A stretch of DNA of 64,000 nt from Lama guanicoe (Eukaryota). Below are positions 1 through 46,377 of this stretch, one piece after another. The stretch covers positions 877,320 to 941,319 of the forward strand of contig MU053810.1 in assembly GCA_013239625.1 (NCBI GenBank), given 5' to 3'. Position 1 is the first letter of the stretch. Each line of letters begins with the position of its first letter. The position numbers and the translations under genes are program-made. The notes below the pieces were generated by a model. That model searched no databases. It was not told the origin of the DNA and worked only from the letters and a program-made list of their open reading frames with translations.

Positions 1-458
1 ATGGTCCCCATTGATCCTCTTGGAACTAGGCCTTGTGTAGATCCCTCCCACTGGATCAGGGCTGGACCAAGTGACGGATAGAATACAGTGGGAGTGATGA
101 CATGTGACTTCCAAGACTGGTCATGACAGCACCGCACCTTCCATCTCTTGCATGGCTCACTCCAGAGGGAAAAGCCACTGTATGCATAGGACACTCAAGC
201 AGCTCCTGCTGAGAGCCCAGAGGAGAGCAATTGGCTTGCCCACCATGTGAGAGGACAGCCTCAGCCCCCACCCAGCCTCTAGACGTCTGCAGCTCCAGCA
301 GCATCCTGACTGCAGCCTTGTGAGTGGCGCTCAGCCAGAACCACCCAACCAGGCTGCCCCTGAGCACCATACACTATGGGGGATGATTACTGACTCGTGT
401 TGCTTTAAGTCACTAAGTTTTGGAATGATTTGTTACACAGCAGTAGATAATTGATACA
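1..458 (+). mobile_element. MaLR (MLT1-type) solo LTR, truncated by window edge
   Basis: MLT1-like motifs (CAGCCTTGTGAG, CAGAACCACCCA) and the typical 3' end TTTAAGTCACTAAGTTTTGGAATGATTTGTTACACAGCAGTAGATAATTGATACA. Confidence 0.7.
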
Positions 459-3400: not shown

Positions 3401-3569
3401 GCAAACGAGGAGACCGAAGTCCAAGCTGGTTAGATGGCTTGCCCCAAGTCATCTGGATATTCATGTCTTTTCTAATTATGTTTACTATTCCCCTCCCATT
3501 TCATAATCAATTTGAAGAGCTTTATCATAAACTGTGTGCTTGCAATAAAGCACTTTGGATTTGCTTCTC

Positions 3570-3960
3570 CACATATTTGGTGCTATGTGCCTGGCATTGT
3601 TCTAGACTGAAAGGTGGACAAAGAAAAACAGAGTCCCCGTGGCGCTTATGACCTGGCACATGGTTATCTTGTGTTAAGTGCTCTGAGGGTAAATGACGGT
3701 TGTGAGAGGGACGGTGCATCGACTTTAGATGCAGCCGTCAGGGACCCTGCTCTGGGATGGCAGCATTTAAGCAGGTGTGGTAGCCTCAGGCAAACTGGAG
3801 CTTGGTGTGTTCACACCAATGGGTAGAGAAGGCCAGTGAGGCTGGAGCTGAGACCACACGCTGGAGGCCTCCATGGTGAGGAGCCAGAGTTGAAACCTAA
3901 TAGAACAGAATCCCTAAGGGGGTGGGAGGGGGTGAGCGGTATAATCCCGTGGACACTTTA
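3570..3960 (-). mobile_element. L2 LINE fragment (old)
   Basis: L2-like 3' end motif ACATATTTGGTGCTATGTGCCTGGCATTGTTCTAG followed by purine-rich L2-like sequence; boundaries approximate. Confidence 0.45.
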
Positions 3961-4439
3961 GAAGATGCTTCCTGCTGCCTTGAGGAGAATGGGCTGTCTA
4001 GAGGCAGGAGAGGAAGCAGTTTCTGCAGTGATAGGGATGAGAGGTGTCACTGGAGGACATTCCAAAAGGAGAAACAGTATAGTAGAGTCTTGGGAGGCTG
4101 AATGAAGATAGGAGGGGACTGGTTGAACCAACTTGTATGGCAGATGGGGACAGATAATGTCAGAACATCGTGTTAGAGGTAAATTGTGGGAGACCACGAA
4201 GATGAGATTTTTCTCTATTCTGGAGAAAATTGGGAACTAGGGAAGTTATTTGAGAAGGGGACTTGTGAATAGATAAATTTCTTTGTTAATTTCTCAAGTA
4301 TAAGAAGTATATTAGATGTAGAGAGGAAAGGAGGCAGGGAGGTCATCTGGGAGGCTTCCCAGAAATTTTGGGGGAATGTAAGTATTCTAGAATTAAAGTT
4401 GTGGCAACAAGAACAGAAATTATCAGAAAAAAATTTACA

Positions 4440-4670: not shown

Positions 4671-5147
4671 ATCCTGTTGCCTCTTGGGTGGGTACAAGGT
4701 GTGTTTATGAAGAAATTTAGATAGTATTTGGAATTATGTACCATATATGAAGAAAGCAGTGCTATCTCTATCCCTTGGACCATGTTTATTTGTTTCTTCA
4801 ACATAGCATATTGTTTGAGTTAAGGATAGACAATATGCTTTCAAAATAGAATGATGGCAGATAAAATTTGAAATTTCCTTCTTCGATTTGCTTTTAAAAG
4901 ACCAGAGATAACGTCAATCTATTTATTCAAATGCCTCTCAAGTGATAGGCATTTATGTTCTCCAGATATCAATTTTGTATTTTGCTGGGAGATGAAACTC
5001 TGGACTAATTATTTGCAGGGTCTAAAGCCACTAGAATTATCTGGAGGCAAGAAAAGAAAAAAGCCCCAAAACCCAAAAAAGTCTGATTTTCTCCAGATGG
5101 TATTCATTGCACATTTCTATGTCTAGATATAATTATAAATAATAATT

Positions 5148-5738
5148 TCTGGGGCATATATCCAGAAGGAACCCTACTTCAAAATGACACATGCACCCCA
5201 ACGTTCCTAGCAGCACTATTTACAATAGCCAAGACATGGAAACAGCCTAAATATCCATCAACAGACGACTGGATAATGAAGATGTGGTATATTTATAAAA
5301 TGGAATACTATTCAGCCATAAAAACTGACAACATAATGCCATTTGCAGCAACATGGATATTCCTGAAGAATGTCATTCTAAGTGAAGTAAGCCAGTAAGA
5401 GAAAGAAAAATACCATATGAGATCACTCATATGCGGAATCTAAAAACATAACAAAACATAAATACAAAACAGAAACAGACTCATAGACATAGAATACAAA
5501 CTTGTGGTTGACAGGGGGGCAGGGGGTGGGAAGAAACTGGGATTTCAAAATGTAGAATAGATGAAAGATTGTACTGTGTAGCACAGGGAAGTATATACAG
5601 GATCTTGTGGTGGCTCACAGCAAAAGAGAACATGACAATGAATGTATGTATGTTCATATATAACTGAAAAACTGTGCTCTACACTGGAATTTGACACATT
5701 GTAAAATGACTATAACTCAATAAAAATGTTTTAAAAAA
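5148..5738 (+). mobile_element. L1 3' end (ORF2 C-terminus + 3'UTR), young lineage-specific subfamily
   Basis: Encodes [27 protein letters not shown], closely similar to the copies at 36.1 kb and 60.5 kb; ends CAATAAAAATGTTTTAAAAAA. Confidence 0.9.
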
Positions 5739-5898
5739 TAGATAAACATCAGGGTCTTACTGTATAGCACAGGGAACTATATTCAATACCTTGTAATAAC
5801 CTATAATGAAAAAGAATATATATAAATATATAACTGCATCACTATGCTGTACACCAGAAACAATATTGTAAATCAACTATACTTCGATTAAAGAAAAA
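5739..5898 (+). mobile_element. L1 3'UTR tail fragment (different subfamily)
   Basis: CTGTATAGCACAGGGAACTATATTCAATACCTTGTAATAACC...TATGCTGTACACCAGAAAC...TATACTTC, the same tail type as 23660-23815. Confidence 0.75.
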
Positions 5899-6662
5899 GT
5901 ACAGTTAAAAAATATATATATATATTTTATCACTCTGTATACTATGAGAATTATTTCTCTAAGAACTTGAAAGGCCCTTACAAAATCACATTTTTATAGT
6001 TCTCTTCTGTTTTTGCATTGGGTGTTTACAGTTCAATTTTTAAAGCACTCAATGCATATTTATGTACTTTTATTTTATTTTTAGGAGAGTGTTCAGTTGA
6101 CATTCACCTGAACTGCCTCACAGAGGAAGTCTCAAGGTGATGCTGAGAAAGATTGATGATTCACGACCCACTCAAGCCAGACTGCAGTAGGGTGCTGGTA
6201 GAAGTCAGAATCTAAAATCATAAAAATGTGGAACCGAGATAGACTATAGGCATGAAAGGACAGAAGCACTTAGAGTTTACTGAATGCATAAATGTTAGCT
6301 TTAAGACATGGAAGCTGTCATTTGTTGTTCCAAAACATCCCCATATTTATAGTTTTAAATGAAATTCACCATCAAGAGTGAAAAAAGCCTCAAATGTACC
6401 TATGTTCAAAGATGTGTTAATTTTATAAATGTTGTCATATTTGTTGTGAAACTAAACAATTCATCATATATTATAGTCAGATATGTAAATACCTCTTACA
6501 TGTTTTTCATCTTTTTTTTAATCTTCACTTCTTTAGATTCTCTTTGATTCCCCCAAACTGTATGGGATAAAGTTTTTAAAAAGTCATTATATAGACTACT
6601 GAGCATATAAAGCTTTTGTGATCTCACATTTGTCTGCTCTTTCACCCCAGTCTCCTTCCATT

Positions 6663-6840
6663 TGTTACCAAACCAAACTTGGATCCCTCGTCCAAGCGCG
6701 GTAGAGCCAATCTAGTGACACCGGGTTGTGATGAAGAAAGCGCAATGTTTATTGCAGGAACTGACAAGTCCCCAGTTTGTTTCAGGGAAGGTGTTTTAAA
6801 GCCAGGATGAGGAAGAGGTTTGCAGGGTGTGATCAGCTCA
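6663..6840 (-). mobile_element. ERV1-type LTR, 3' half only
   Basis: Starts TGTTACC (reverse complement of an LTR ...CA end), AATAAA on the minus strand at ~6748-6753; resembles laurasiatherian ERV1 LTRs from recall; similarity stops next to the DAXX copy. Confidence 0.5.
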
Positions 6841-6849
6841 GGGAGGAAG

Positions 6850-9490
6850 AATCAACTTGCCAACTATGAGAAATAGTACGGAAACGCAACCGAAAGACCG
6901 GACAGCGACGTGAGGGGTAGAGCTGGGAGTGGGACTTAAGGTTTTCAGACAGTTTGGGGCTCCCACAGTAAAGGTCCAGAAAAACATATGGTACTAATGG
7001 TTGCTGAAGACAGGCAGTGAGGACACTGTTGAGCATGGCTGGGTGTTTTTGAAACCCAGGAAGACTGGAAAATGTGTGAGATGATGGGATGGGGCTGTGC
7101 TGGAGGGGCTCTTTCTGAGGCCCCATCCCCTTCCAGCAGGAATTACGAAATCCCCAACACTTTCTCCCTCCAGGGGGTTTGATCCCCCATGGCCACCACT
7201 AACAGCATCATCGTGCTGGATGATGATGATGAAGACGAAGCAGCTGCTCAGCCAGGGCCCTCCCACCCACCCCCGAATCTGGCCTCACCCGAGGCAGAAG
7301 CCCCTGGCTCCTCCCAGCCCCATGTGGCCAGAAGAAGCAGTAGTTCGGGTGGCAAGAAATGCTACAGGTTGGAGAATGAGAAGCTGTTTAAAGAGTTCCT
7401 TGAACTGTGTAAGACGCAGACAGCAGACCACCTGGAGGTGATCCCTTTCCTCTATAACCAGCAGCAGCGTGCCCACTCTCTGCTTCTGGCCTCAGCGGAG
7501 TTCTGCAACATCCTCTCTCAGGTCCTCTCTCGGGCTCAGAGCCGACCAGCTAAGCTTTATGTCTACATTAATGAGCTCTGCACTGTCCTCAAGGCCCACT
7601 CAGCCAAGAAGCAGCTGAATCTGGCCCCTGCTGCCGCCACCTCTAGTGGGCCCTCTGGGAATAACCCTCCCACAGACTCCTCGGACCCCACAAATGCTGA
7701 GACCACTGCCTCTGAGGCCCCAAGGACCCGTGCTTCCCGGCGGCAGATCCAGCGCTTGGAGCAGCTGCTAGCACTCTATGTAGCGGAGATCCGGCGGCTG
7801 CAGGAAAAGGAGCTGGATCTCTCAGAACTGGACGACCCAGACTCCACTTACCTGCAGGAGGCAAGGTTGAAGCGTAAGCTGATCCGCCTCTTTGGGCGGC
7901 TGTGTGAGCTGAAAGACTGCTCTTCACTGCCAGGTTGGGTCGTAGAGCAGCGCATCCCCTACCGTGGTACCCGCTACCCAGAGGTGAACAGGCACACTGA
8001 GCAGCTCATCAACAAACCAGGGCTTGACACCTTCCCTGACCATGGAGATGTGCTGCGGGCCGTAGAGAAGGCATCTGCTCGGCACAGTCCTGGCCTCCCC
8101 TGACAGCAGCTTCAGCTGATGGCTCAGGATGCCTTCCGAGATGTGGGCATCAGGTTACAGGAGCGTTGCCACCTTGATCTCATCTACAACTTTGGCTGTC
8201 ACCTCACAGATGACTACAGGCCAGACATTGATCCCACACTGTCAGATCCTGTCCTCGCCCAGCACCTGCGGGAGAACCGGAGCTTGGCTATGAGCCGTCT
8301 GGATGAGGTCATCTCTAAATATGCAATGAAGCAAGACCAGAGTGAGGAGGGCGAGAGACAGAAGAGAAGAGCCCAGCTCCCCCAAGCCACCTCTTCCCAC
8401 TCTGTAGATCCCCCCAAAGCCTCCTTGGATTCTGGTGAGGGCCCTAGTGGGATGGCATCCCAGGAATGCCCTACCACCTCCAAGGCTGAGAAAGATGATG
8501 AAGAAAATGAGGAAAGTGAGGAGGAGGAGGAAGCAGGTAAGGATGGAGATAAGAGCCCCATGTCCCCGCTACAGATCTCCACTGAAAAGAACCTGGAACC
8601 TAGCAAAGGGATCAGCAGGTCTTCAGGGGAGCAGCAAAACAAAAGACTTGCAGTGTCACCATCTTCACTGTCGGAAGAGCCCCCAGCCCTCTCCAGCACA
8701 GATGCTGAAAGCAGTGGAGAACACCTCGAGGAGTTGCCCCTGGAGGAAGAGAGCCCTATGTCTCAGCTCTTCGAGCTACAGATTGAAGCCTTGCTCCTGG
8801 ATACTACCCCTTCTCCTGAGAAGAGGGATGCTTCCTCTTCCAGGAAGCAATCAGAGGAACCCCTCACCACTGTTTTGGAGAATGGAGCAGCCATGGTCAC
8901 CTCCACTTCCTTCAATGGAGGTGTCTCTCCTCACACCTGGCGAGATGCCGGTCCTCCCCACAAGAAATCTCGGATGGAGAAGCAAACAGAAGCAGGGCCA
9001 TTAAGAAATAGCCATGTGGAAAGGCAAAGGGCATTGCGTGGGAAGAACGGGAAGGAGACATGTACGCTGCCCAGCCCACCTTCCCCCTTGGCTTCCACGG
9101 CTCCTGTTGCTGATTCCTCAGGGAGGGTGGACTCTCCTAGCCATGGCCTGGTGACCAGCTCCCTCTGCAGTCCATTTCCACCCTGCTGTCCCAAACCCCC
9201 CAATCACAACCCTCCAGGCCTGGTACTTATGAGATGAGTGTGGCCACACAGTGCGATCCAGAGGAGATCATCGTGCTCTCAGATTCTGATTAGCTGCCTC
9301 CCCCTCCTCCCTGCCTCCAAAATGTTTTGGAATAGTATTTGGAGGATGGTGGGAAGCAGACGACAGAGGAAGGGATGGACTGAGCTAAACTCCTTTTGGT
9401 GGTTTCTTTTTTTTTAAAAAAAAAGGCTTAAGTTTTACACAGAAACATTAATAAACAATAAAGTTCTTTTCTTAGTGTTAAAAAAAAGAA
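6850..9490 (+). pseudogene. DAXX: DAXX processed pseudogene (death domain-associated protein 6)
   Basis: Intronless CDS 7189-9293 from MATTNSIIVLDDDD to ...CDPEEIIVLSDSD*. Nonsense TGA at 8101-8103 (probably from CGA), frameshift near 9180, AATAAA at 9450 and 9457, A-tail at 9480-9487. 5' boundary uncertain. Confidence 0.95.
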
Positions 9491-10321: not shown

Positions 10322-10608
10322 AGCGGGAAGCTTATAAATGCGGGGTGAAGGAGTAGCTCGATCAAAGTATTATCTTTCAAACCAAACCAAAACACAACAA
10401 ACAGCAAACATAAACCAAGTCAAGTCCCCCCACCCCAGAATCAACATTCACTTAGGACATACCAGTATCTTCTTATCTTATCCTGTACTTCTATGAGAAA
10501 CACCTATTTTAACACTGCTGACTTCTTATTTTTAAGGAAGTTATTTATCATTCTAAACTACTTTCTTTTGAACACCTTTAGATTTTTGGGTACTTTTAAG
10601 TTATTATA

Positions 10609-10716
10609 AGCTCAGTGGTAGAGCACATGCTTAGCACGCACAAGGTCCTGGGTTCAATCCCCAGTACCACCATTAAATGAATTAATAAACCTAATTATCT
10701 CCCCCACTTAAAAAAA
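10609..10716 (+). mobile_element. tRNA-derived SINE (Vic-1-like, camelid)
   Basis: A box AGCTCAGTGGTAGAG, B box GGTTCAATCCC, A-tail, 11-bp TSD AAGTTATTATA (10598-10608 and 10717-10727). Confidence 0.9.
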
Positions 10717-12362: not shown

Positions 12363-15300
12363 ATGTCTTCAGGGCCAGTGACCCAGGCTATGTGCGTTTC
12401 TTCAGGGTCAGTCACCGAGGCCAAAGATGTGACTTCAGGGCCAATAACCCAGGTCCAGGGTGTGCGTTCAGCAACAGAGACCCAGGCCCAGGGTATGCCA
12501 TCTAAGAAAGTAACCGAGGCCCAGGCTGTGATTTCATGCCCAGTGACATAGGCCCAAGGTTGCCTTCAGGGCCAGTGACCCAAGTCCAGGGTGTGCCTTC
12601 AGTGCCAGTGACCCAGGCCAAGAGTGTGCTCTCAGGACCACTGACCCAGGCCCAGGGTGCTACTTCAGGACCAGTGACCCAGGTCAAATGTGTGTTCAGG
12701 GCAAGTGACCCAGGCCAAGTGACCCAGGCCAGGGTTTGCCTTCAGTGCCAGAGACACAGGCCCAGGGTGTTTTTTCGGGGCCAGTGACCCAGGCCAAGTG
12801 AGCATCTTCTGCACCAGCGATCCAGGCCTAGAGAGCGCCTTCAGTGCTACTGACCAAAGCCCAGTGTGTGCCTTCTTTACCAACGACCCGGGTCCAGGGT
12901 GTGCCTTCAGCGCTAGTAACTCAGGGCCAGGGTGCACCTGTGTGCAAGCCACCCAGGCACTGGTTGTGACTTCAGAGCCACTGATCCAGATCAAGGGTGG
13001 GACTTCAGCGCCACTGACCCAGGAAAATCACGTGTGTTCTGAGCCAGTGACCCAGACCAAGGATGTGACTTCCATGCGAGTGACCCAACCCCAGGGTGGG
13101 CATTAACAAACAAAAGCCGAGGCCCAGGTTGTGCCCTCAGCACCAGTGACCCAGGCCAGGGTTTGCCTTCAGTGCCAGTGACACAGGCCCAGGGTGTTTT
13201 TTCGGGGCCAGTGACCCAGGCCAAGTGTGAGTCTTCAGGTCCAGTGACCCAGGTCAAGGGTGTAACTTCAGGACCACTACTAAAGGCCAAGCATGGGCCT
13301 TCAGGGCTAGTGACCCAGGCCGAGGTTGTGACTATGGGGCCAGTGACACAGTCCCAGGGTGTGCCTTCAGCGCCAGTGACCCAAGCTCAATGTGTGCCTT
13401 AGGGGCCACTGACCAAAGCCCAGATGTGCCTTCAGGCCAGACACCCAGCCCTAAGGTGTGTCTTCAGGACCAGTGACCTAGGCTGTGTGTGTTTCTTCAG
13501 GGTCAAGACCCAGACCAAGGGTGTCCGTTAGGCATCAGTGACTCATGCCTAGGGTGTGCCTTCTACGAAAGTGACTGAGGTTCAGGGTGTGCTTTCATCT
13601 CCAGTGACACAGGCCAAGGGTGTGTCTTCAGCGCCAGTGACCCAAGTCCAGGGTGTGTCTTCAGCGCCAGTGATCCAGGCCCATGGTGTGTCTTCAGGGA
13701 CAGTGACTCAGGCCAATGGTGTGACTTGAGGGCCAGTGACCTAGGCCAAGAGTGTGTCTTCAGGGCCAGTGACCCAGGCCCAGGGTGCTAATTCAGTGCC
13801 AGTGATTGAGGCATAAATTGTGCCTTCTGCATCACAGACACAGGACCATGGGGTACCTTCAGGGCTAGTGACCCAACCCACAGTTTGTCATCAAGGCCAG
13901 TGACCCAGCCCAGGGTGTTTCTTCATGGCCATCGACCCAGGCAGAGGGTGTGTCTTCAGGGCCAGTCACCAAGGACAAGTGTGTGTCTTCAGTGCTAATG
14001 ACCCAGGTCAAATGTGTGCCTCATGACCAGGGACCCAGGCCCAGGGTGTGCCCTCTGCACCAGTGACCCAGGCCCAGTGTGTGTCCTCTGCACCAGGGAC
14101 CCAGGCCCAGGGTAAGGCTTCTGCACCAGTGACCCAGGCCCAGGTTGTTTGTTCGGGGCCAGTGACCCAGGCCAAGAGTGTACCTTGAGGACCAGTTATC
14201 CTGGTCCAGGGTGTGACTTCAGAGCCAGTGACCCAGGTAAATGGTAAGACTTCAGCACCTGTGACCCAGGCCCATGGTGTGCCTTCCAGGCTAGTGACCA
14301 AAGCCCAGTATGTGCCTTCTTTACCAGTGACTCAGGTCCAGCGTGCGCCTTCAGCATCAATGACTCAGGGCCAGGGTGTACCTTTAGCGCCAGTCACCAG
14401 GGTAAGGCTTCTGTGCCAGTGACCAAGGCCCAGGGTGTTTTTTCAGGGCCAGTGATCCACGATAAGTGTGTGTCTTCAGGGACAAGGACCCAGGTCAAGG
14501 GTGTGACTTTAGGGCCACTAACCTAGGCCAAGAATGTGCCTTCAGGGCCAGTGACACAGTCCCAGGGTGTACCTTTGGCACCAGTGACTGAAGCCCAGAT
14601 GTGCCTTCAGGCCACACACCCAGGCCCAGGGTGCGCCTTCAGGGCAAAACCAGGTCCAGGGTGTGCCTTCAGTTGCAGTCAACCAGGCCCAGGGTGTGCC
14701 TTCAGTTGCAGTCAACCAGGCCCAGGGTGTGCCTTCGGGGCCAGTGACAGAAGCCCAGATGTGCCTTCAGGCCAGAAACCCAGGCCTAGTGTATGTCTTC
14801 AGGGCCAGTGACCCAGGCTAAGTGAGTTTCTTCAGAGTCAGTGGCCCAGGACAAGTATGTGTTCCAGGGCCAGTGATCCAGGCCCAGGCTGTGTCTTCAG
14901 GCCCAGTGACCCAGGCCCAGGGTGCTAATTCAGGGCCAGATTCCTAGATCAAGTGTGTGTCTTCAGGGCCAGTGTCACAGGCCCAGTTTTGTCGTCGGTG
15001 CCAGTGAACCAGATCCAGGGTATGCCTTCAGCTCTAGTGACCCAACTGCAGCGTGTGCCTTCTGCCCCAGTGATGCAGGCCCAGGGTGTGCCTTCAGCGC
15101 CAGTGACAAACGGCCAGGGTGTGGCTTCAGGACCAGTGACCCAGGTTCAGGGTGTGCCTTCAGCACAAATGACTCAGGGCCAGGGTATGTCTTCATGGCC
15201 ACTGACCAAGGCCCAGGGTGTGTCTTTAGGGCCAGTGACCCAAGCCTAGTGTGTGTCTTCAGGACCAGTTACCCTGGTCCAGGGTATGACTTCAGGGCCA

Positions 15301-16183
15301 GTGACCCAGGCCAAGGGTGTGACTTTGGCACCAGTGACCAAAGCCCAGATGTGCCTCAAGCCAGACACCCAGGCCCAGGGTGTGTCTTCAAGGCCATTGA
15401 CCTGGGCTAAGTGTGTTTCTTCAGGGCCAATGACGCAGGCCCAGGGTGTGCCTTCTGCACCAGTCACCCAGGCCCAGGGTAAGGCTTCTGTGTCAGTGAC
15501 CCAGGCCCAGGCTCTTTTTTCTGGGCCAGTGACCCACAACAAGTGTGTGTCTTCAGGGCCAGTGACTCAGACCAAGAGTGCGTCTTCACGGTCAGTGACC
15601 CAGGCCCAGGGTTGCAACCAGTGCCAGTGATCCAGGCCCGGGGTATGCCCTCAGCCCCAGTGACACAAGCACAGCATGTCACTTCTGTGCCAGTGACCCA
15701 GGCCAAGTGTGTGTTCAGGGCCACTGACCCAAGCCAAGTGTGTGTCTTCAGGGCCAGTGACCCAATCTAAGCGTGTTTCTTCAGGGACACTGACCCAGGC
15801 CAAGGGTATGCGTGCAGCACCAGTGACATGGTCCCTCGGTGTTTCTTCTAGGAAAGTGACCGAGGCCCTGGGACTGCTTTCATGTCATGTCACACAGTCC
15901 CAGGGTGTGCCTTCAGGGGCAGTGACCCAGGCCCCCGGGTTCTTCTGAAGGCCAGTGATGCAGGCCCAGGGGATGGCTTCTGTGCCAGTGACCCAGGCCC
16001 AGGCTGTTTTTTTAGGGGACAATAACCCAAGCCAAGAGTGTGTCTTCAGGGCCAGTGACCAAGGCCAAGAGTGCGTCTTCTTGGCCAGTGACCCAGGCCC
16101 ACGGGGTCTTCTCAAGGCCAGTGACCTAGGGGATGGCTTCTGCACCAATGACCCAGGCCCAGGGTTGCCATCAGCGCCAGTGA
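12363..16183 (+). repeat. 33-bp tandem repeat array, left arm of palindrome (~115 degenerate units)
   Basis: Recurring CCAGTGACCCAGGCCCAGGGTGTGCCTTCAGGG with ~33-nt period; broken ORFs translate to PVTQAQGVPSG repeats. Confidence 0.95.
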
Positions 16184-17258
16184 ACCCCGCCGCCCCCTCA
16201 CCGGGTGGTCCCACGATCTTAAAGTCGCGGGTGAAGGTGTCCCAATGCCAGAAAGACCTTAGGTGGCACCTGGGAAGGACCTGGAAGGACTGCACGGGGC
16301 GGAGACCGACGCAAGGGGCCAGTAGGTAGCGCCAGAAAGCAGACAGGACCGTTGGGCGAGCCGGGCCCCTGGCGAGCCAGGCCGGGAGAGCGGAGAAGTT
16401 TCTCCCCAACTTCCCGACTCTGAGCTGGCGAGGGCGGGTGGGAGTGGCGCGCCCGGGCGCCGGGGCCGGGGCCGGCCGCCTTCGCCCGCGGGTTGCGTGG
16501 AGGGGGCGGCGAGCGGAGGCGAGGCCCGCGGGCCCTCTCCCTCCTCCACCTCCAAGCCCCGGGTACCCGGCCGCGGAGACGACTGCACAGCCGACCGCGC
16601 AGTAGCTTCTTCACCGGGAGTGAACTCCCGGGCTCTGCTCCTTCGCGGGCAGGGGCTCGGAGGGACTTCCGGTTTGCGAGCCGGGCGCGCGCGAGGGTAA
16701 ACGGAAGTCGCGCGCGCGACCCGACGGCAAACCGGAAGTCTCGCGCGCGCCCGGCTCACAAACCGGAATCCCGTCGCGCCCCTCCCTGCGAAGGAGCAGG
16801 GCCCGGGAGTTCATTCCCGGTGAAGAAGCTACTGCGCAGTCGGGTGTCCGGGGTTTACGAGATGGAGGAGGGAGAGGGACCGCGGGTCTCGCCTGCGCTC
16901 GCCGGCCCCTCCACGCAACCCGCGGGCGGAGGCGGCCGACCCGGGCCCCGGCCCCCGGCCCCGCAGCGCTAGGCCCCGGCGCCCGGACGCGCCACTCCCA
17001 CCCGCCCCCGCCAGCTTAGAGTCGGGAAGTTGGGGAGAAACTTCTCCGCCCTCCCGGCCTGGCTCGCCAGGAGCCCGGCTCGCCCGATGGACCTGTCTGC
17101 TTTCTGGCGCTACCTGCTGGCCCCCTGCGTCGGTCTCCGCCCCGTGCAGTCCTTCCAGGTCCCACTCAGGTACCGCCTAAGGTCCTCTTAGCGTTGGGAC
17201 ACTCCGACCCGCGACTTTAAGGTCGTGGGACCACCCGGTGAGGGGGCGACGAGATTCA
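16182..17258. promoter_or_regulatory. CpG island made of a head-to-head duplication; putative bidirectional promoter
   Basis: Very GC- and CpG-rich. 16182-16695 is the reverse complement of 16740-17258 (roughly 85-95% by eye). ETS sites ACTTCCGGT 16665, ACGGAAGT 16701, ACCGGAAGT 16731, ACCGGAAT 16762; CGCG runs; GC boxes. Confidence 0.8.
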
Positions 17259-20200
17259 CTGGCACTGATGGCAACCCTGGGCCTGGGTCACTGGTGGAGA
17301 AGCCATCCCCTCGGCCTGGGTCACTGGCACTGATTGTAACCCTGGGGCTGGGTTACTGGCCGTGAAGACGCACTCTTGGCCTTGGTCACTGGCCCTGAAG
17401 ACACACACTTGGCTTAGGTCACTGGCCCTGAAAAAACAGCCTGGGCCTGGATCAGTGGCGCAGAAGCCATCCCCTGGGCCTGGGTCACTGCACTGATTAA
17501 ACCCCTGGCCCTGGGTAACAGGCCGTGAAGACGCACTCTTGGGCTGGGTTACTGGGCCTGATACACAGCCTGGGCCTGGGTCAATGGCCTTGAAGATGCA
17601 CTCTTGGCCTTGGTCACTGGCCCTAAAGACACACACTTGGCTTAGGTCACTGGCCCCGAAAAAAACAGCCTGGGCCTGGGTCACTGGTGCAGAGCCATCC
17701 CCTGGGCCTGCATCAGTGGCCTTGGGAAGACCCCGGGGGCCTTGGTCAATGGCCCTGAAGACGCACTACTCACCTTGGTCAGTGGCCCTAAAGACACACA
17801 CTTGGCTGGGTCAGTGGCCCTAGAGACACATCCTTGGCTTGGGTCACTGGCCCCGAAAAAACTGCCTGGGCCTGGATCAGTGGCGCAGAAGCCTTCCCCT
17901 GGGCCTGGGTCACTGGCCTTCAGAAGAACCCAGGGGCCTGGGTCACTGCCCCTGAAGGCACACCCTGGTACTGTGTGACATGACATGAAAGCAGTCCCAG
18001 GGCCTCGGTCACTTTCCTAGAAGGAACAGCGAGGGACCATGTCACTGGTGCTGCATGCATACCCTTGGCCTGGGTCAGTGACCCTGAAGAAACACGCTTA
18101 GAATGGGTCAGTGACCCTGAAGAAACACGCTTAGATTGGGTCACTGGCCCTGAAGACAGACACTTGGCTTGGGTCAGTGGCCCTGAACACACACTTGGCC
18201 TGGGTCACTGGCACAGAAGTGACATGCTGTGCTTGTGTCACTGGGGCTGAGGGCATACCCTGGGCCTGGGTCACTGGCAATGATTGCAACCCTGAGGTTG
18301 GGTCCCTCGCTGTGAAGACACACTTCGTCTGGATCACTGGCCCTGATACACACTCTTGGCCTGGGTCACTGGCCCTGAAGATGAAGTTTTGGCCTTGGTC
18401 ACTGGCCCTAAAGACATATGCTTGGCTTTGGTCAGTGGCCCTAGACACACACTTTTTGGCTTGGGTCACTGGCCTCGAAAAAACAGCCTGGGACTGGGTC
18501 ACTGGTGGAGAAGCCATCCCCTCGGCCTGGGTCACTGGCACTGATTGCAACCCTGGGCCTGGGTCACACTGGCCGTGAAGACGTACTCTTGGCCTGGGTC
18601 ACTGGCCCTGATACATACGCTGGGCCTGGGTCACTGGCCGTGAAGACACACTCGTGGCCTTGGTCACTGGCCCTAAATATGCATACTAGGCTTTGGTCAG
18701 TTGTCCAAGTGACACACCTTTTGCTTCGGTCACTGGCCCAAAAAAAATAGCCTGGGTCTGTGTCACTGGTACAGAAACCATCCCCTGTGCCTGGGTCACT
18801 GGCCTTGAGAAGACCCCGGGGTCCTGGGTCACTGCCCCTGAAGGCACACCCTGGTACTCTGTGATATGACATGAAAGCAGTCCCAGGGCCTCAGTCACTT
18901 TTCTAGAAGGAACACCGAGGGACCGTGTCACTGGTGCTGCATGAATACCCTTGGCCTGGGTCAGTGACCCTGAAGAAACACACTTAGACTGGGTCACTGG
19001 CTGTAAAGACACACACTTGGCTTGGGTCAGTGGCCCTGATCACCCACTTGGCCTGGGTCACTGGCACAGTAACACGATGTGCTTGTGTCACTGGGCTGAG
19101 GGTATACTCTGGGCCTGGGTCACTGGCACTGATTGCAAACCTGGACCTGGGTCACTGGCCGTGAAGACACACTCTTGGCCTGGGTGACTGGGCCTGATAC
19201 ACATCCTGGGCCTGGGTCACTTGCCTTGAAGACATAGTCTTGGCTTTGGTCAATAGCCCTAAAGACACACACTTGGCTTTGTTCAGTGGCCCTAGAGACA
19301 AATCTTGGCTGGGTCACTGGCCCTGAAGACACACGCTTGGCTTTGGTCAGTGGATATAGAGACACACTCTTGGTTTGGGTCACTGGCTCTGAGAAAACAG
19401 CCTGGGCCTTGATCACTGGTGCAGAAGCCATCCCCTGGGCCTGAGTCACTGGCCCTGATACACACCCTGGGCCTGGGTCAATGGCCTTGAAGACGCACTC
19501 TTGGCCTTGGTCACTGGCCCTAAAGATACGCACTTGGCTTAGGTCACTGGCCCCGAAAACACAGCCTGGGCCTGGGTCACTGGTGCAGAAGCCATCCCTC
19601 TGGGCCTGAGTCACTGCCCTGGAGAACACCCTGGAGGCCTGGGTCAGTGACCCATAAGGCATACCCTGGGACTGTGTCACTGATGCTGTACGCACACCCT
19701 TGGCCTGGGTCAGTGACTCTGAAGAAACACATAGACTGGGTCAGTGGCCCTGAACATACACTTGGCCTGGGTCACAGGCACAGAAGTGACATGCTTTGTT
19801 TATGTCACTGAATCTGGGAGCACACCCCGGGTTTGGGTCACTGGCCGTGAAGACACACTTGTGGCCTTGGTTACTGGCCCTAAATACACATACTAGGCTT
19901 TGGTCAGTTGTCCAAGTGACACACTCTTAACTTGGGTCACTGGCCCCGAAAAAACAGCCTGGGCCTGGATCAATGGCGCAGAAGCCATACCCTGGGCCTG
20001 GGTCACTGGCACTGATTACACCCCTGGGCCTGGGTCACTGGCCCTGAAGACATACCCTGGGTCTTGGTATCTGGCCTGAAGTCACATCTGGGCTTCGGTC
20101 ACTGGCTCCAAAAGCACACCCTGGGCTTGGGTGACTGGCACTGATGTCAAACCCTGGACTTGCTTTGTGGTCCTGAAGTCATACCCTTGGTCTGTGTCAC

Positions 20201-22947
20201 TGGACATGAAAGCACACCCTGGGCCTCGGTGACTTTCGTAAAAGGCAACTCCTCGGCCTGTGTCACTGGTGCTGAATGCATACCCTTTGCCAGGGTCACT
20301 GGTCGTGAAGACACACCCTGGGCCTGAGTGTCTAGCTGAAAGCACATCTGGGCTTCAGTCACTGGCACTGAAGGCACACCCTGGGACTCTGTCACTGGCC
20401 CTTATGGCACATTCTTGGTCTGGATTAGTGGCTCGAAAGTCACACAGTTGATCTGGGTCCCTGGCCCTGAAGACACACACTTGTCGTGGGTCACTGGCCC
20501 TGAAAAAACACCCTGGGCCTGGGTCACTGTTGCAAAAGACATATCCTGGGCCTGGGTCATTGGTGCAGAAGGCACACTCTGGGTCTAGGTCACTGGCACT
20601 GAAGGCAAACCCTAGGTCACTGGCGCTGAGGGCACAACCTGGGCCTCGGCTTTTGTTTGTTAATGCCCACCCTGGGGTTGGGTCACTTGCGTAGAAGTCA
20701 AATCCTTGGTCTGGGTCACTGGCTCAGAACACACGTGATTTTCCTGGGTCAGTGGCCCTGAAGTCCCACCCTGGGCCTGGGTGACTGGTGCTGAAGGTCC
20801 ACCCTGGCCGTGAGTCATTGGTGCTGAAGGCACACCCTGGACCTGAGTCACTGGTAAAGAAGGCACACGCTGGGCTCTGGTCACTAGCGCAGAAGGCACA
20901 CCCTAGGCCTGGGTCGCTGACTCTGAAGTCATATCATTTACCTAGGTCACTGGCCATGAATACACAGCCAGGGCCTGTGTCACTGGCCTTGAAGACACAC
21001 CCTTGGCCTTGATCACTGGCCCTGGAGACACACACTTGGCCTGTGTCACTGGCACTGAAGACACTCTTGGCCTTGGTCACTGGCCCTGAAGACACTCTTG
21101 GCCTTGGTCACTGGCCCTGGAGACACACACTTGGCCTGTGTCACTGGCACTGAAGACACTCTTGGCCTTGGTCACTGGCCCTGAAGACACTCTTGGCCTT
21201 GGTCACTGGCCCTGAAGACACACCCTGGGCCTTTGCCTCTCTCCTTGAAGACAGGCCCTGCTCCTGGGTGACTGGCCCTGGAACACATACTTGGCCTGTG
21301 CTACTAGCCCTGAATTAGCACCCTAGGCCTGGGTCTATGGCCCTGATGACACACTCTTGGCATGGGTCACTGGCCCTGAAATCACACCATTGGCCAGGGT
21401 CACTGGCCCTGAAGGCACACACTGGGCCTGGGTCACTTGCCCTGAGCACACATTTTGCCTGGGTCACTGGTCCTGAATTAGCACCCTGGGCCTGGGTCAC
21501 TGGTGCTGAAGGCACACTCTTGGCCTTGGTCACTGACCTTGAAGACACATGATCTGCCTGTGTCAATGACCATGAAGACACAGTCTGGGCCTGTGCCACT
21601 GGCCTTGAGAAGAAACTGTGGGCCTAGGTCACTGACCCTGAAGGCATACCATGGTCCTGAGTCACTGGCGAAGAAGGCACATCCTGGGCCTGGGTCACTG
21701 GGACTGAAGGCACAACCTGGGCTTGTGTCATTGGCGCAGAAGGCACGTGCTGGGCTTGGTTCACTGGCGCTGAGCACACTCTGGGCCTGGGTCACTAGGC
21801 CTGAAGACGCACCCTGCACCTGCGTCACTGGTGCTGATGGCAACCCTGAACCTGGGTCACAGGCCCTAGAACACAGAGTTGGCCTGGGTCACTGGCTCTA
21901 AATTAGCACCCTGGGCCTGGGTCGCTCGCCTTGAAGACAAACCGTGGCCCAGTGTCACTGGTCCTGAAGGCACACCATGGTCCTGGGTCACTGGCACAGA
22001 ACGCACAACTTGGGCCTGTGTCACTGGCTTTGAAAACACACCCTTGTTCTGGTTCAGTGGCCCTGAATACACACCCTGGACCTATTTCTCTGACCATCAA
22101 GGCATACCCTAGGCCTGGGTCACTGGCCCTGAAGGCACACCCTGGGCCAGAGTCACTGGTGCTGAGGGAACAACCTGGACCTGGGTCACTCGTCCTGAAG
22201 GCACCTCCTGGGCCGGGGTCATTGGCCATGAAGATACACCATTGGCCTGGGTCACGGAGGCTGAGGACGCACACTGGGCCTGGATCCCTGCCGCTCAAGG
22301 CACACCGTGGTCCTGGGTCACTGGTCCTAAGGCAAAATCTGGCCCTGGGTCATTGGCCCCAAAGATACACCCTGGGCCTGTATCACTGGTCCTGAAGGCA
22401 CACCCTGGGCCTTGGTTACTGGCCCTGAAGGCACACACATGGCCTGGCTCACTGGCCCTGAAGACACACCATTGGCCTGGGTCATGGGCCCTGAAGACAC
22501 ACAATGGGCCTGGGTCACCGTAACTGAGCGCACAACGGGGCCTAGGTCACTGGCGCTCAAGGCACACTCTTGGCCTAGGTCATTGGTGCTCAAAGCACAC
22601 CCTGATCCTGGGTCACTGGCCCTAAGGCAAAATCTGGGCCTGGGTCCCTGGCCCTGAAGACTCATACTTGGCCTGGGTCACCTGCCCCGGAAAAGCACCC
22701 TGGGCCTGGGTCACTGGTGCAGAAGGCACACCCTGGGTTTGCATCACTGGTTCTAAAGGCAAACCATGGTCTGGGTCACTGGCACTGAGAGCACAACCTC
22801 GGCCTCTGTCTTTGTCTGTGAACACCCACCCTAGGACTTGTTTACTGCCGTAGAAATCACAGTCTTGGCCTGGGTCACTCACGCAGAACGCACATGTTTG
22901 TCATGGGTCAGTGGCCCTGAAGTCCCACCCTTAGCCTGGGTCAGTGA
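17257..22947 (-). repeat. 33-bp tandem repeat array, right arm of palindrome (~170 degenerate units)
   Basis: Recurring CCCTGGGCCTGGGTCACTGGCCCTGAAG, the reverse complement of the left-arm unit; variant blocks are shared with the left arm. Confidence 0.95.
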
Positions 22948-24232: not shown

Positions 24233-31422
<7,190 letters not shown>

Positions 31423-32369: not shown

Positions 32370-32451
32370 GAGAAAGAGAAAGAAAAATACCATATGACAT
32401 CACTCATACGTGGAATCTCAAACAAACAAACAAAAAAGACACAAATGAACT
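32370..32451 (+). mobile_element. short internal L1 3' fragment
   Basis: GAAAGAGAAAGAAAAATACCATATGACATCACTCATACGTGGAATCT...GACACAAATGAACTT, homologous to 23461-23530. Confidence 0.7.
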
Positions 32452-32699
32452 TTCAGGCCAGACACCAAGGTCCAGGGTGTTTTTCCGGCCCGGTGACCCA
32501 GGATAAGTGTGGTTCTTCAGGGTCAGTGACCTAGGCCAAGGATGTGCGTTCCGTACCAATGACACAGGCCCAGGCTGTGCCTTAAGGGCCAGTGACCCAG
32601 GACCAGGGTGTGTCTTCAGGGCCAGTGTCCAGGCCCAGGGTGTGTCTTTAAGGCCAGTGACCCAGGCCCAGGGTTGCCATTAGGGTGAGTAATCCAGGA
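32452..32699 (+). repeat. outlying mini-array of the same 33-bp repeat (~7 units)
   Basis: GGGCCAGTGACCCAGGACCAGGGTGTGTCTTCAGGG and similar units, same orientation as the left arm. Confidence 0.92.
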
Positions 32700-42882: not shown

Positions 42883-45619
<2,737 letters not shown>

Positions 45620-46377
45620 CCTCTTACAATTATTTTTGATGGGGGGTATCATATATTCTTACCGGGCTGGTGAAGATTGGAAGGAACTGTCAAATATGAA
45701 CACATTTGTTTTATGTTATGCATCATTATTAAGAGCATGAGAGTTGAAAGTAAATTTGGCTCTGAGAAAAATATATTATTGGTGAGGGTTAATGAACACA
45801 CCAGGCATTTTAATACAAAATTGTCATGAAAACATATACCATATGCTTGAATTAAATACTGAATTTGAAAGAAAGCTTCTTGCTGAATTTGCACTCATTT
45901 TAGATGTTGAAATTGTTTTTGTGATGTCTGTAGAATCAGTTTTTTTAGAGGATGAATTTTTCCACATTTTACACTAACTAAATGGGATTATGAATGAGCG
46001 AATTATTACAAATATTGTTGTTTTCTGAGGGAGAAAAAAGTGATATTAAATACGATAGGAAGAATATGCAAATTGCCATTTTGACCTATTGCTACAATGA
46101 AAAGAATAAAATGTGTGATATTGATAAAACAAAGTCAATTAAACAAATGTGTATTAAAGAACAATTGTTTCAAAGTAAAATAAGGTTTTCTGTCCTTTGT
46201 CATCTCTCTTCTGAGGACTATAGGCTACGTTCCTTTCTTCCTTTATTTTTATTTTCATTTTTTAAGCATAGCACAGCACATCTTACTCAGCCCATGTAGG
46301 ACATGTGTCCAGACCTCCTGGTTAATCTTACAAAGATGTCCACTAGGAAGTGTATGGAACTCATCTTCACCTACTTA

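What the first reader, a model, noticed from the sequence alone, without database searches (positions are those of the whole stretch)
12363..22947. 10.6-kb palindrome: two inverted 33-bp repeat arrays mirrored around a CpG island
Seen: 12363-16695 and 16740-22947 are reverse complements in architecture (array then unique GC block, mirrored) with only a ~44-bp spacer. Both array/core junctions fall at the same base (CAGGGTTGCCATCAG(C/T)GCCAGTGAA). A distinctive marker block lies about 3.6 kb left (~13100) and 3.9 kb right (~20660) of the axis. Established: long short-spacer palindromes are unstable and rare on autosomes. Inference: a lineage-specific unit made of a promoter plus repeat-RNA template, duplicated head to head and retained. 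A read-through transcript would fold into a multi-kb hairpin. I do not recognise the 33-mer as a named satellite.
Basis: partly seen in the sequence, partly recalled or inferred. Interest (0 to 1): 0.85.

Follow-up and report, generated by a model that had tools for sequence, protein, structure and literature searches.

The report
Old CpG-island palindrome with minisatellite arms
Just upstream of the sperm gene PTCHD3 in a camelid genome lies a real but old and worn 10.6-kb near-palindrome, a promoter-like CpG island copied head to head and flanked by mirrored 33-base repeat arrays, and it is one of at least five such units in that genome.

Summary
Window 12363-16183 and 17256-22947 are inverted, degenerate 33-bp arrays (about 117 and 174 units). 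Between them lies a 1.07-kb CpG island made of two inverted arms, about 88-89% identical, around a 43-bp centre. The arms differ by about 12% and two indels, so this is an old quasi-palindrome and not an assembly foldback.

It is not unique. The same array-core-core-array design recurs at four other places in the same genome, with three single-arm relics and two core-only relatives. All 12 array-bearing arms share one array/core junction. Two loci share 3.8 kb of one flank, which shows spread by segmental duplication. The 33-mer alone occurs at about 18 places.

The cores keep CpG o/e of 0.78-0.99 while the arrays are at 0.10-0.28. I infer that the cores have stayed unmethylated in the germ line. 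My best reading is a promoter-like CpG island with ETS-type and GC-box motifs that fires outward into the arrays.

No coding signal, transposase or target-site duplication was found. The hairpin-RNA idea remains untested. Moderate interest: a new variant of known kinds.

The parts
12363..16183 (+). Left 33-bp minisatellite array (consensus CTTCAGGGCCAGTGACCCAGGCCCAGGGTGTGC), about 117 degenerate units
   Evidence: TRF rows 12367-12716 and 12713-16183. 47 units lie at exact 33-bp spacing and are 81% identical to the consensus, with no 3-base periodicity. CpG o/e is 0.11-0.16.
16184..16697 (+). Left arm of the CpG-island core (array-to-centre orientation)
   Evidence: Aligns to the reverse complement of the right arm at 89% column identity. 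It has paralogues at about 9 loci of the genome. An ACTTCCGG motif lies at 16665-16672.
16698..16740 (.). Centre or spacer: an extra copy of the 31-bp ETS-motif unit (CGGAAGT at 16702-16708, CCGGAAGT at 16732-16739)
   Evidence: TRF row 16702-16768, period 31, 2.2 copies. The sequence was read. It forms the loop of the predicted DNA hairpin.
16741..17255 (-). Right arm of the CpG-island core (inverted copy of the left arm)
   Evidence: It is 87.7% identical to the left arm over 530 aligned columns, K2P 0.135.
17256..22947 (-). Right 33-bp array (reverse-complement units), about 174 units, with internal duplications
   Evidence: TRF row 17256-22943. 78 units lie at exact 33-bp spacing, 79% identical to the consensus. 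Internal duplication 17809-18108 / 18695-18994 at 89%.
12994..13182 (+). Marker block, left arm
   Evidence: 93.7% identical over 189 bp to the reverse complement of 20589-20772.
20589..20772 (-). Marker block, right arm
   Evidence: A further, more diverged copy lies near the right outer end: I16, 12979-13276 versus 22649-22946, 77%.
32440..32685 (+). Third, short patch of the 33-mer, about 1 kb behind the last PTCHD3 exon. It ends with the same terminal unit variant (GTTGCCAT[C/T]AG) but has no core.
   Evidence: TRF row 32515-32685. 32654-32683 matches 17294-17265 at 96.7% over 30 bp, and there is no core homology beyond. The sequence was read.
24233..25240 (+). PTCHD3 exon 1 (neighbouring gene). 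Its start codon lies 1,286 bp beyond the right array's outer end.
   Evidence: tblastn of P0001 (patched domain-containing protein 3 [Vicugna pacos]) gives aa 1-336 at 99.4%.

Best explanation
SHOWN: This is an old quasi-palindrome. A promoter-like CpG island of about 0.5 kb became fused to a 33-bp minisatellite. The array-plus-island unit was duplicated head to head, and the whole palindromic unit was later copied to other places by segmental duplication. This gave a low-copy family of at least 5 full palindromes in this camelid genome. The copy in the window sits 1.3 kb upstream of the PTCHD3 start codon. The arrays have since drifted, expanded and exchanged blocks, and the core arms have diverged by about 12%.

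INFERRED: The cores have stayed unmethylated in the germ line while the arrays were methylated. The reason would be that the centre still works as a TATA-less CpG-island promoter, with tandem ETS-type CCGGAAGT sites at the axis and GC boxes in each arm. It would fire in both directions, so each arm yields the same kind of repeat-rich, non-coding transcript running outward through the island into its 33-mer array. On the right side that transcript runs towards PTCHD3.

Arm divergence plus the asymmetric 43-bp centre is what lets a short-spacer palindrome persist.

The confidence given is for the whole statement. The structural part alone I hold at about 0.9, and the promoter part at about 0.45.
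For: Structure:
- Searches show the inverted arrays, the 88-91% core arms and the two indels.

Family:
- The core query (window 16184-16700) gave 17 matches at about 9 places.
- Of the 9 regions examined, 5 have array(+)-core-core(rc)-array(-). Three have one arm with an array on one side: C7565:42k and C1724:5254k with the array abutting the core, C3272:254k with an array 1.6 kb from a partial core. One has a core without arrays (C3806:1384k).
- All 12 array-bearing arms in the alignment share the junction ...GTTGCC(A/T)TCAG(C/T)GCCAGTGAAC, which points to one origin of the array-core fusion.

Segmental duplication:
- The right flank of C2405 is 93.6% identical to the left flank of C7251b over 3,783 bp. 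Matching arms pair across these loci (89.6% and 88.7%), while arms within each locus are only 79-81% alike.
- C3272:2030k carries a PTCHD3-exon-1-like piece, 89.3% over 1,438 bp, next to its array.

Germ-line hypomethylation:
- Core CpG o/e is 0.89 (window), 0.91, 0.78 and 0.99 in four full palindromes, against 0.10-0.28 in their arrays.
- Of 58 substitutions specific to one window arm, only 6 are CpG transitions. S>W outnumber W>S 35 to 8, so GC-biased conversion is not what keeps the island GC-rich. 42 of 53 and 39 of 52 majority CpG sites are kept.

Promoter-like motifs:
- ACTTCCG lies within about 100 bp of the inner end in 7 of 14 extracted arms, which is 6 of the 8 arms of the four CpG-rich palindromes. 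There are 3-5 GC-box hexamers per full arm. That these motifs are ETS and SP1 sites is recalled.

Not coding:
- The units show no 3-periodicity.
- No Pfam family was found on the core ORFs.
- No protein in the 5.8-billion set resembles an array translation.

Presence in relatives:
- 12 DNA runs other than the two possible source samples, carrying 4 coded organism labels and 6 studies, hold 63-87% of the core's sampled 31-mers.
Against: - No transcript was seen.
- GC skew runs the wrong way for outward transcription from a typical CpG-island promoter. The left core is +0.10 and the right core -0.08 on the + strand, so outward RNAs would be C-rich. The active direction may therefore be inward, or there may be none.
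- The core-only relative C3806:1384k, a possible progenitor promoter, could not be tied to any gene. Pfam found nothing above cut-off on 150 of the 152 ORFs of 75 aa or more in 80 kb.
- Two copies have decayed (CpG o/e 0.43 and 0.49), so retention is not universal.
- Motif assignments rest on short consensus strings recalled from memory, not on a scored motif library.
Confidence: 0.5

Rival explanations
1. Inert duplication debris. The unit is a fossil of segmental duplication. The CpG island is kept only passively, for example by leftover transcription-factor occupancy or simple chance. It yields no RNA of consequence and has no effect on PTCHD3.
For: - The arrays are degenerate: units are 79-81% identical to the consensus and neighbouring copies match at 67-70%.
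- The arms drift without recent homogenisation: 88% here, 79-81% at two paralogous loci.
- Two copies have lost CpG richness.
- No gene or conserved ORF lies in the unit. The ATG of the short right-arm ORF is absent from the left arm and from several paralogues.
- Other patchwork duplications with stray CpG islands were noted in this genome (unchecked notes).
Against: Four palindromes keep CpG o/e at or above 0.78 in cores that have diverged 8-25% between arms, while the adjoining arrays fell to 0.10-0.28. CpG transitions are only 6 of 58 arm-specific changes. This needs long-term protection from germ-line methylation, which is most simply explained by promoter activity or factor binding.
Confidence: 0.28
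2. Hairpin-RNA or small-RNA source. Transcription entering from one side reads through the axis. The RNA folds into a long imperfect duplex, which is processed into endo-siRNAs or edited by ADAR.
For: A read-through RNA of 16125-17314 is predicted to fold into one nearly continuous hairpin of about 570 bp (MFE -1206 kcal/mol). The inverted arrays would extend it imperfectly. The neighbour PTCHD3 is known as a sperm-expressed gene (recalled).
Against: - No upstream promoter aimed at the unit was identified.
- The fold follows by construction from any inverted repeat.
- The arrays are only about 72% complementary in any register, which is poor Dicer substrate.
- A CpG-island promoter at the axis would give divergent, non-complementary RNAs.
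- No RNA data could be laid.
Confidence: 0.08
3. Foldback-type mobile element. Long terminal inverted repeats built of short tandem repeats flank a central domain, and the unit moves as DNA.
For: The anatomy resembles Drosophila FB elements (recalled): inverted arrays of a short unit around a centre, in several copies. The window's flanks share no homology with those of most other copies. Array-only loci exist, such as C3427.
Against: - No target-site duplication is seen at the outer array ends of the five full palindromes read.
- The outer ends fall at different points in the array.
- No transposase-like ORF was found (Pfam nothing).
- Two pairs of loci share flanking sequence, as expected of segmental duplication and not transposition.
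- Copy number is very low and the copies are 74-86% identical to the window's core, so there has been no recent activity.
Confidence: 0.05
4. Assembly artefact: a foldback chimera or a collapsed or misjoined repeat.
For: Palindromes and minisatellites are hard to assemble. The genome is fragmented (55,231 contigs). Reads across the axis could not be inspected.
Against: - Artefactual foldbacks give near-identical arms. Here the arms differ by about 12%, by 28-bp and 21-bp indels and by 1.9 kb in array length.
- Four other loci on other contigs have the same design with their own diverged arms.
- There is no N in the window.
- The core's 31-mers are held by runs of four organism labels.
Confidence: 0.02

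Closest known systems
Palindromic segmental duplications of mammalian sex chromosomes (human Y P1-P8; primate X palindromes, PMC8327919, abstract seen in the listing)
   Same: Two inverted arms around a short spacer, persisting over millions of years and copied within the genome. It sits next to a testis-type gene.
   Different: Those have arms of 8 kb to over 1 Mb that are more than 99% identical through ongoing arm-to-arm gene conversion (recalled), and the arms carry protein-coding gene families. Here the arms are 4.3 and 6.2 kb, only 72-91% identical, carry no gene, consist mostly of minisatellite, and have a 43-bp spacer.
Bidirectional CpG-island promoters with GABP/ETS sites (recalled from the general literature)
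   Same: A CpG island (GC 0.70-0.75, o/e 0.88) with CCGGAAGT motifs in both orientations at its centre and GC boxes on both sides.
   Different: Ordinary bidirectional promoters are not inverted duplications of themselves and are not flanked by mirrored tandem arrays. No divergent gene pair was identified here, and GC skew is opposite to that expected for outward transcription.
Foldback (FB) transposons of Drosophila and relatives
   Same: Inverted arms composed of short tandem repeats around a central domain, present in several copies.
   Different: No target-site duplication, no defined termini and no transposase. Spread by segmental duplication is shown for two pairs of loci. The host is a mammal.
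Repeat-array non-coding loci next to CpG islands (e.g. DXZ4, FIRRE; recalled)
   Same: A CpG-rich promoter-like element associated with kilobases of tandem repeats that might be transcribed.
   Different: Those arrays have large units (156 bp to 3 kb), are in direct orientation and bind CTCF. Here the units are 33 bp, the arrays are inverted and CpG-poor, and no CTCF-like motif was evident by eye.

Membership tests
Minisatellite (tandem repeat, unit 10-100 bp) | Head-to-tail copies of a 10-100 bp unit over hundreds of bp or more | tested here: met
   TRF finds period 33 with 106 and 174 copies. Anchor spacing is 33 in 47 of 89 and 79 of 144 intervals.
CpG island | Longer than 200 bp, GC above 0.5, CpG observed/expected above 0.6 | tested here: met
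   16001-17000 has GC 0.70 and o/e 0.88. The 1,151-bp core window has GC 0.709 and o/e 0.89.
Bidirectional CpG-island promoter | Divergent transcription start sites within about 1 kb, shown by transcripts | not testable with these tools
Sex-chromosome-type large palindrome | Arm-to-arm identity above 99%, kept by gene conversion | tested here: not met
   The core arms are 87.7% identical, and the arrays about 72% with blocks up to 96.9%.
Sex-chromosome-type large palindrome | Protein-coding, testis-expressed gene families inside the arms | tested here: not met
   No Pfam family on ORFs of the core, no coding periodicity in the arrays, and no similar protein.
Foldback transposon | Terminal inverted repeats made of tandem sub-repeats | tested here: met
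   Inverted 33-bp arrays flank the centre at 5 loci.
Foldback transposon | Target-site duplication and defined element ends | tested here: not met
   The outer boundaries of the 5 full palindromes, read, show no matching direct repeat, and the array ends fall at different unit phases. In the window the right end abuts what looks like an L1 fragment, so that one is inconclusive.
Foldback transposon | Insertion at unrelated sites without co-duplicated flanks | tested here: inconclusive
   The window's flanks are unrelated to most copies. But C2405 and C7251b share 3.8 kb of flank, and C3272:2030k shares the PTCHD3 exon-1 region.
Hairpin-RNA / endo-siRNA locus | One transcript spanning both arms, and small RNAs from the duplex | not testable with these tools
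   Only the predicted fold is available.

The most novel reading that the evidence does not exclude
Camelids carry a small family of stabilised short-spacer palindromes. In each, a self-duplicated, germ-line-unmethylated CpG-island promoter drives the same 33-nt-repeat RNA from both arms, or long double-stranded RNA and small RNAs when read through. The copy at PTCHD3 feeds repeat-containing transcripts into, or silences, this sperm gene. That would be a repeat-RNA gene family born from a promoter-minisatellite fusion and held in palindromic form for tens of millions of years.
Probability: 0.1. Interest if true: 0.7.

Novelty: new variant of a known kind. Interest (0 to 1): 0.42.

Why it matters
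Long inverted repeats with spacers of a few dozen bases are usually thought too unstable to last in mammalian genomes. Here a 10-kb example has lasted long enough for its arms to diverge by about 12%. It was copied to other loci with its form intact and is held in sequencing runs of four organism labels.

It offers a natural series of five palindromes of different arm identity (79-92%). That series could be used to ask how much divergence and central asymmetry is needed for stability. It could also show whether a CpG island placed on a palindrome axis stays unmethylated because it is a promoter.

If the centre is active, it would also be an unusual alternative upstream promoter or antisense source for PTCHD3. 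If it is silent, the locus is ordinary duplication debris with an odd shape.

Tried and rejected
There are therefore no data on axis-spanning reads or on expression.
2. In one search, six rows were listed as RNA or guessed to be RNA, four of them on record as RNA. They include two labelled reproductive system metagenome.
3. The search of earlier findings by place and by sequence returned nothing for the window, an array piece or the core.
4. Two metagenome scans with conserved core motifs gave 0 hits each. Orthologues in other mammals could not be sought, and no non-camelid mammal genome or Dfam/Repbase copy is on hand. Whether the 33-mer has a name there, or is truly camelid-specific, is therefore open.
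5. The search for the progenitor gene around the core-only copy C3806:1384k failed. Pfam on 150 of the 152 ORFs of 75 aa or more in 80 kb gave only three sub-cut-off hits.
6. Coding origin of the 33-mer (11 aa) is rejected. Entropy by phase is 0.73/0.89/0.90 and 0.81/0.87/1.00, there was no protein match, and ORFs in all frames are at most 206 aa. A first fuzzy-regex segmentation caught only 21 units and was discarded.
7. Rfam at gathering thresholds found only two tRNA-like SINE heads in the window.
8. Literature searches found no description of this structure. The terms were PTCHD3 with palindrome; camelid, satellite and 33 bp; inverted repeat, CpG island, minisatellite, bidirectional promoter and palindrome; camelid, segmental duplication and palindrome; foldback and mammalian. 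The alpaca satellite paper PMC13751797 lists only 1.8-8.5-kb units and has none of the terms 33 bp, palindrom, inverted, CpG or minisatellite in its main text. I read its outline, one section and a term search, but not its supplements.
Only C3427 was then examined.


Full report
**What is there**

Tandem Repeats Finder finds two long arrays of a 33-bp unit. The left array runs 12367-16183 with consensus CTTCAGGGCCAGTGACCCAGGCCCAGGGTGTGC, in two rows of 10.7 and 106.3 copies. The right array runs 17256-22943 with the reverse-complement unit, 174.1 copies. Neighbouring copies match at only 67-70%.

Using a 7-base anchor, 47 left and 78 right units lie at exact 33-bp spacing. They are 81% and 79% identical to the consensus. 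These are old, degenerate minisatellites.

Between them, 16184-17255 is a CpG island. GC is 0.70-0.75. There are 108 CpGs in 16001-17000, giving o/e 0.88, against 0.10-0.22 in the arrays.

**The core is itself an inverted duplication**

- Arms 16125-16467 and 16972-17314 are 91% complementary without gaps.
- The full arm alignment has 89% column identity. A 28-bp stretch is present only in the right arm and a 21-bp stretch only in the left.
- Over 530 aligned columns in the family alignment the arms are 87.7% identical, K2P 0.135.
- The centre, 16698-16740, is not symmetric. It is an extra copy of a 31-bp unit (TRF 16702-16768) that carries CGGAAGT.
- In all, the axis region has ACTTCCGG at 16665-16672, CGGAAGT at 16702-16708, CCGGAAGT at 16732-16739 and a decayed CCGGAAT at 16763-16769 (read).

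**How far the mirror symmetry extends**

Mirror register continues about 220 bp into the arrays: 15961-16467 versus 17482-16972, 88.3%. After that it is broken by duplications in the right arm, for example 17809-18108 and 18695-18994 at 89%.

Some non-mirrored blocks are more alike than the core. For example, 15607-15797 versus 18104-18294 is 96.9%. Blocks were therefore exchanged or copied between the arms after the core arms had begun to diverge.

**Not an artefact**

The arms differ by about 12%, by indels and by 1.9 kb of array length, and the window has no N. Artefactual foldbacks would have near-identical arms.

The core's sampled 31-mers are held at 63-87% by 12 DNA runs other than the two possible source samples. 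These runs carry four coded organism labels and come from six studies.

**Where it lies**

- The large ORF 29899-31422 is the last exon of PTCHD3. Its best hit is 'patched domain-containing protein 3 [Vicugna pacos]' at 99% identity, and the next best is 85%. Pfam finds Patched and sterol-sensing domains.
- That alpaca protein maps to exons at 24233-25240, about 26123-26287, 27148-27300 and 29899-31419.
- The genome is therefore a camelid, in agreement with unchecked earlier notes on the same genome.
- The palindrome's right array ends 1,286 bp before the PTCHD3 start codon. What looks like an L1 ORF2 fragment lies in between (recalled resemblance).
- A third small patch of the 33-mer at 32440-32685, in the opposite orientation to the right array, lies about 1 kb behind the last exon. 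It ends with the same terminal unit variant as the array/core junction but has no core.

**It is a family**

Searching the window's own 2.05-Gb assembly with the left core arm gave 17 matches at about nine places. I fetched 20 kb around eight of them and mapped arrays and cores.

- Full array(+)-core-core(rc)-array(-) units occur at C2405:~768k, C7251:~487k, C7251:~30k and C3272:~2030k, besides the window.
- C7565:42k and C1724:5254k keep one arm with its array abutting the core. The former is interrupted at the centre, the latter by an N gap.
- C3272:254k has a partial core and an array 1.6 kb away.
- C3806:1384k has the core sequence in a larger CpG island with no array. C3272:254k is its paralogue, about 90% identical over 1.6 kb. 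This is a possible progenitor promoter, but Pfam found nothing above cut-off on 150 of the 152 ORFs of 75 aa or more in the surrounding 80 kb.

In the alignment of 14 arms, all 12 array-bearing arms share the same array/core junction. The fusion of minisatellite and island therefore happened once.

The 33-mer itself is more widespread. A 601-bp array query gave 129 matches at about 18 places on 10 contigs. At least one of these, C3427, is an array with no core.

**How it spread and how old it is**

The right flank of C2405 and the left flank of C7251b are 93.6% identical over 3,783 bp, while their other flanks are unrelated. Matching arms pair across these two loci (89.6% and 88.7%), but the two arms within each locus are only 80.7% and 79.2% alike. 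The palindrome therefore existed, with already diverged arms, before that segmental duplication.

C3272:2030k carries a PTCHD3-exon-1-like segment, 89.3% over 1,438 bp and inverted, beside its array. It is a decayed duplicate of the window's locus. The full PTCHD3 last exon is single-copy.

The window's other flanks match the other loci only through common transposable elements. No target-site duplications or fixed termini are seen at the outer array ends of the five full palindromes.

In the tree the two window arms are sisters (support 0.93), and the two arm types of the C2405/C7251 group are sisters (0.98). Two histories fit this. Either an ancestral palindrome had early arm-to-arm homogenisation in each lineage followed by free divergence, or palindromes formed repeatedly from the same unit. 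The shared junctions favour the first.

Core arms change about 1.8 times faster than flanks (K2P 0.113-0.123 against about 0.066 for the same duplication). On that scale the window's arm divergence of K2P 0.135 corresponds to roughly 7% neutral divergence. That is on the order of 15-30 million years at commonly quoted mammalian rates. The rate is recalled and the date is rough.

**What it probably does**

Coding is unlikely. The units show no 3-base periodicity, ORFs in every frame stay at or below 206 aa, no Pfam family hits the core ORFs, and no known protein resembles an array translation. A short ORF starting at an ATG in the right arm is not conserved in the left arm or in several paralogues.

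The strongest functional hint is methylation history.

- Four palindromes keep core CpG o/e of 0.78-0.99, although their arms have diverged 8-25%. Their arrays are at 0.10-0.28.
- Polarising changes with the paralogues, only 6 of 58 changes specific to one window arm are CpG transitions, and 42 of 53 and 39 of 52 majority CpG sites survive.
- S>W changes outnumber W>S by 35 to 8, so GC-biased gene conversion is not propping up the island.

I infer that the cores have been unmethylated in the germ line for a long time, with a sharp boundary at the array junction.

The motif content also fits a TATA-less CpG-island promoter firing from the axis. ACTTCCG lies near the inner end in 7 of 14 arms, which is 6 of the 8 arms of the four CpG-rich palindromes, and there are 3-5 GC-box hexamers per full arm. 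The motif meanings are recalled.

Because the arms are inverted, the two outward transcripts would have the same sequence, not complementary ones. Only read-through across the axis would give the long hairpin that predicts. The central 256 nt also fold as single-stranded DNA far better than shuffles (z = -20.7), but both folds follow by construction from any inverted repeat.

Against the outward-promoter picture, GC skew is positive in the left core and negative in the right on the + strand. Outward RNAs would therefore be C-rich, unlike typical CpG-island promoters. No expression data could be examined.

**Comparison with known things**

The unit works most like a bidirectional CpG-island promoter, and it looks like a small, worn palindromic segmental duplication.

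- It fails the defining features of sex-chromosome palindromes, which are more than 99% arm identity and genes within the arms.
- It fails those of foldback transposons (target-site duplications, fixed termini, a transposase), although its inverted tandem-repeat arms resemble them.
- My literature searches found no description of it. The recent alpaca satellite survey treats only kilobase-scale units, and I did not see its supplements.
- No Dfam/Repbase copy and no non-camelid mammal genome was available. Two metagenome scans with core motifs found nothing. 'Unnamed' and 'camelid-specific' therefore remain untested.

**Verdict**

The structure is real, ancient and retained, but it is one of a family and its repeat is dispersed. 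Any RNA role is unproven. I rate it a new variant of known kinds and of moderate interest.

Noticed in passing
window 7183-9237 (+): Intronless DAXX-like copy. Pfam finds the Daxx N-terminal domain (E 2.6e-46) and the DAXX histone-binding domain (E 1.1e-21) in two adjoining ORFs split at 8103. This is probably a processed retrocopy with at least one frame break.
   Followed up: partly
window 43434-45513 (-): Intronless SANBR (KIAA1841)-like copy. Pfam BTB_SANBR (E 6.9e-13) hits ORF 44214-44975, with neighbouring ORFs in other frames and a small CpG-rich patch at 45001-46000 (o/e 0.65). This is probably a processed retrocopy.
   Followed up: partly
window 17256-22947 and 32440-32685: PTCHD3 (24233-31419) is bracketed by oppositely oriented 33-mer arrays. 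The decayed duplicate at C3272:~2030k has the exon-1 region inverted relative to its array. This suggests array-mediated inversion.
   Followed up: partly
G000:C3272:~249400-251300 (L025 about 5000-6900): A different tandem repeat lies directly before a 33-mer array. It is seen as long ORFs of reiterated PSPGPALSWACPLLGL-like peptides on both strands. The unit was not measured.
   Followed up: no
window 1-4000: A GC-rich block (GC 0.53-0.57, CpG o/e 0.14-0.37) with long ORFs on both strands but no Pfam family. Its nature is unknown.
   Followed up: partly
window 10600-10672 (+) and 62970-63041 (-): Two tRNA-like heads (Rfam tRNA, 35 and 43 bits; ARAGORN calls the second tRNA-Ala), each followed by A-rich tails. 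They are probably tRNA-derived SINEs of the camelid type (recalled).
   Followed up: no
G000:C1724:~5253300-5254200 (L023 about 8290-9200): ORFs resembling an RRM-protein retrocopy (hnRNP M-like by recall) lie just beside the single-arm copy of the core.
   Followed up: no
G000:C3806:1384151-1385400 (L020 1-1300): The core-only CpG island continues about 1 kb beyond the shared part. It contains an AACATGGCGGCGG motif typical of start regions (recalled). The gene it serves was not identified.
   Followed up: partly
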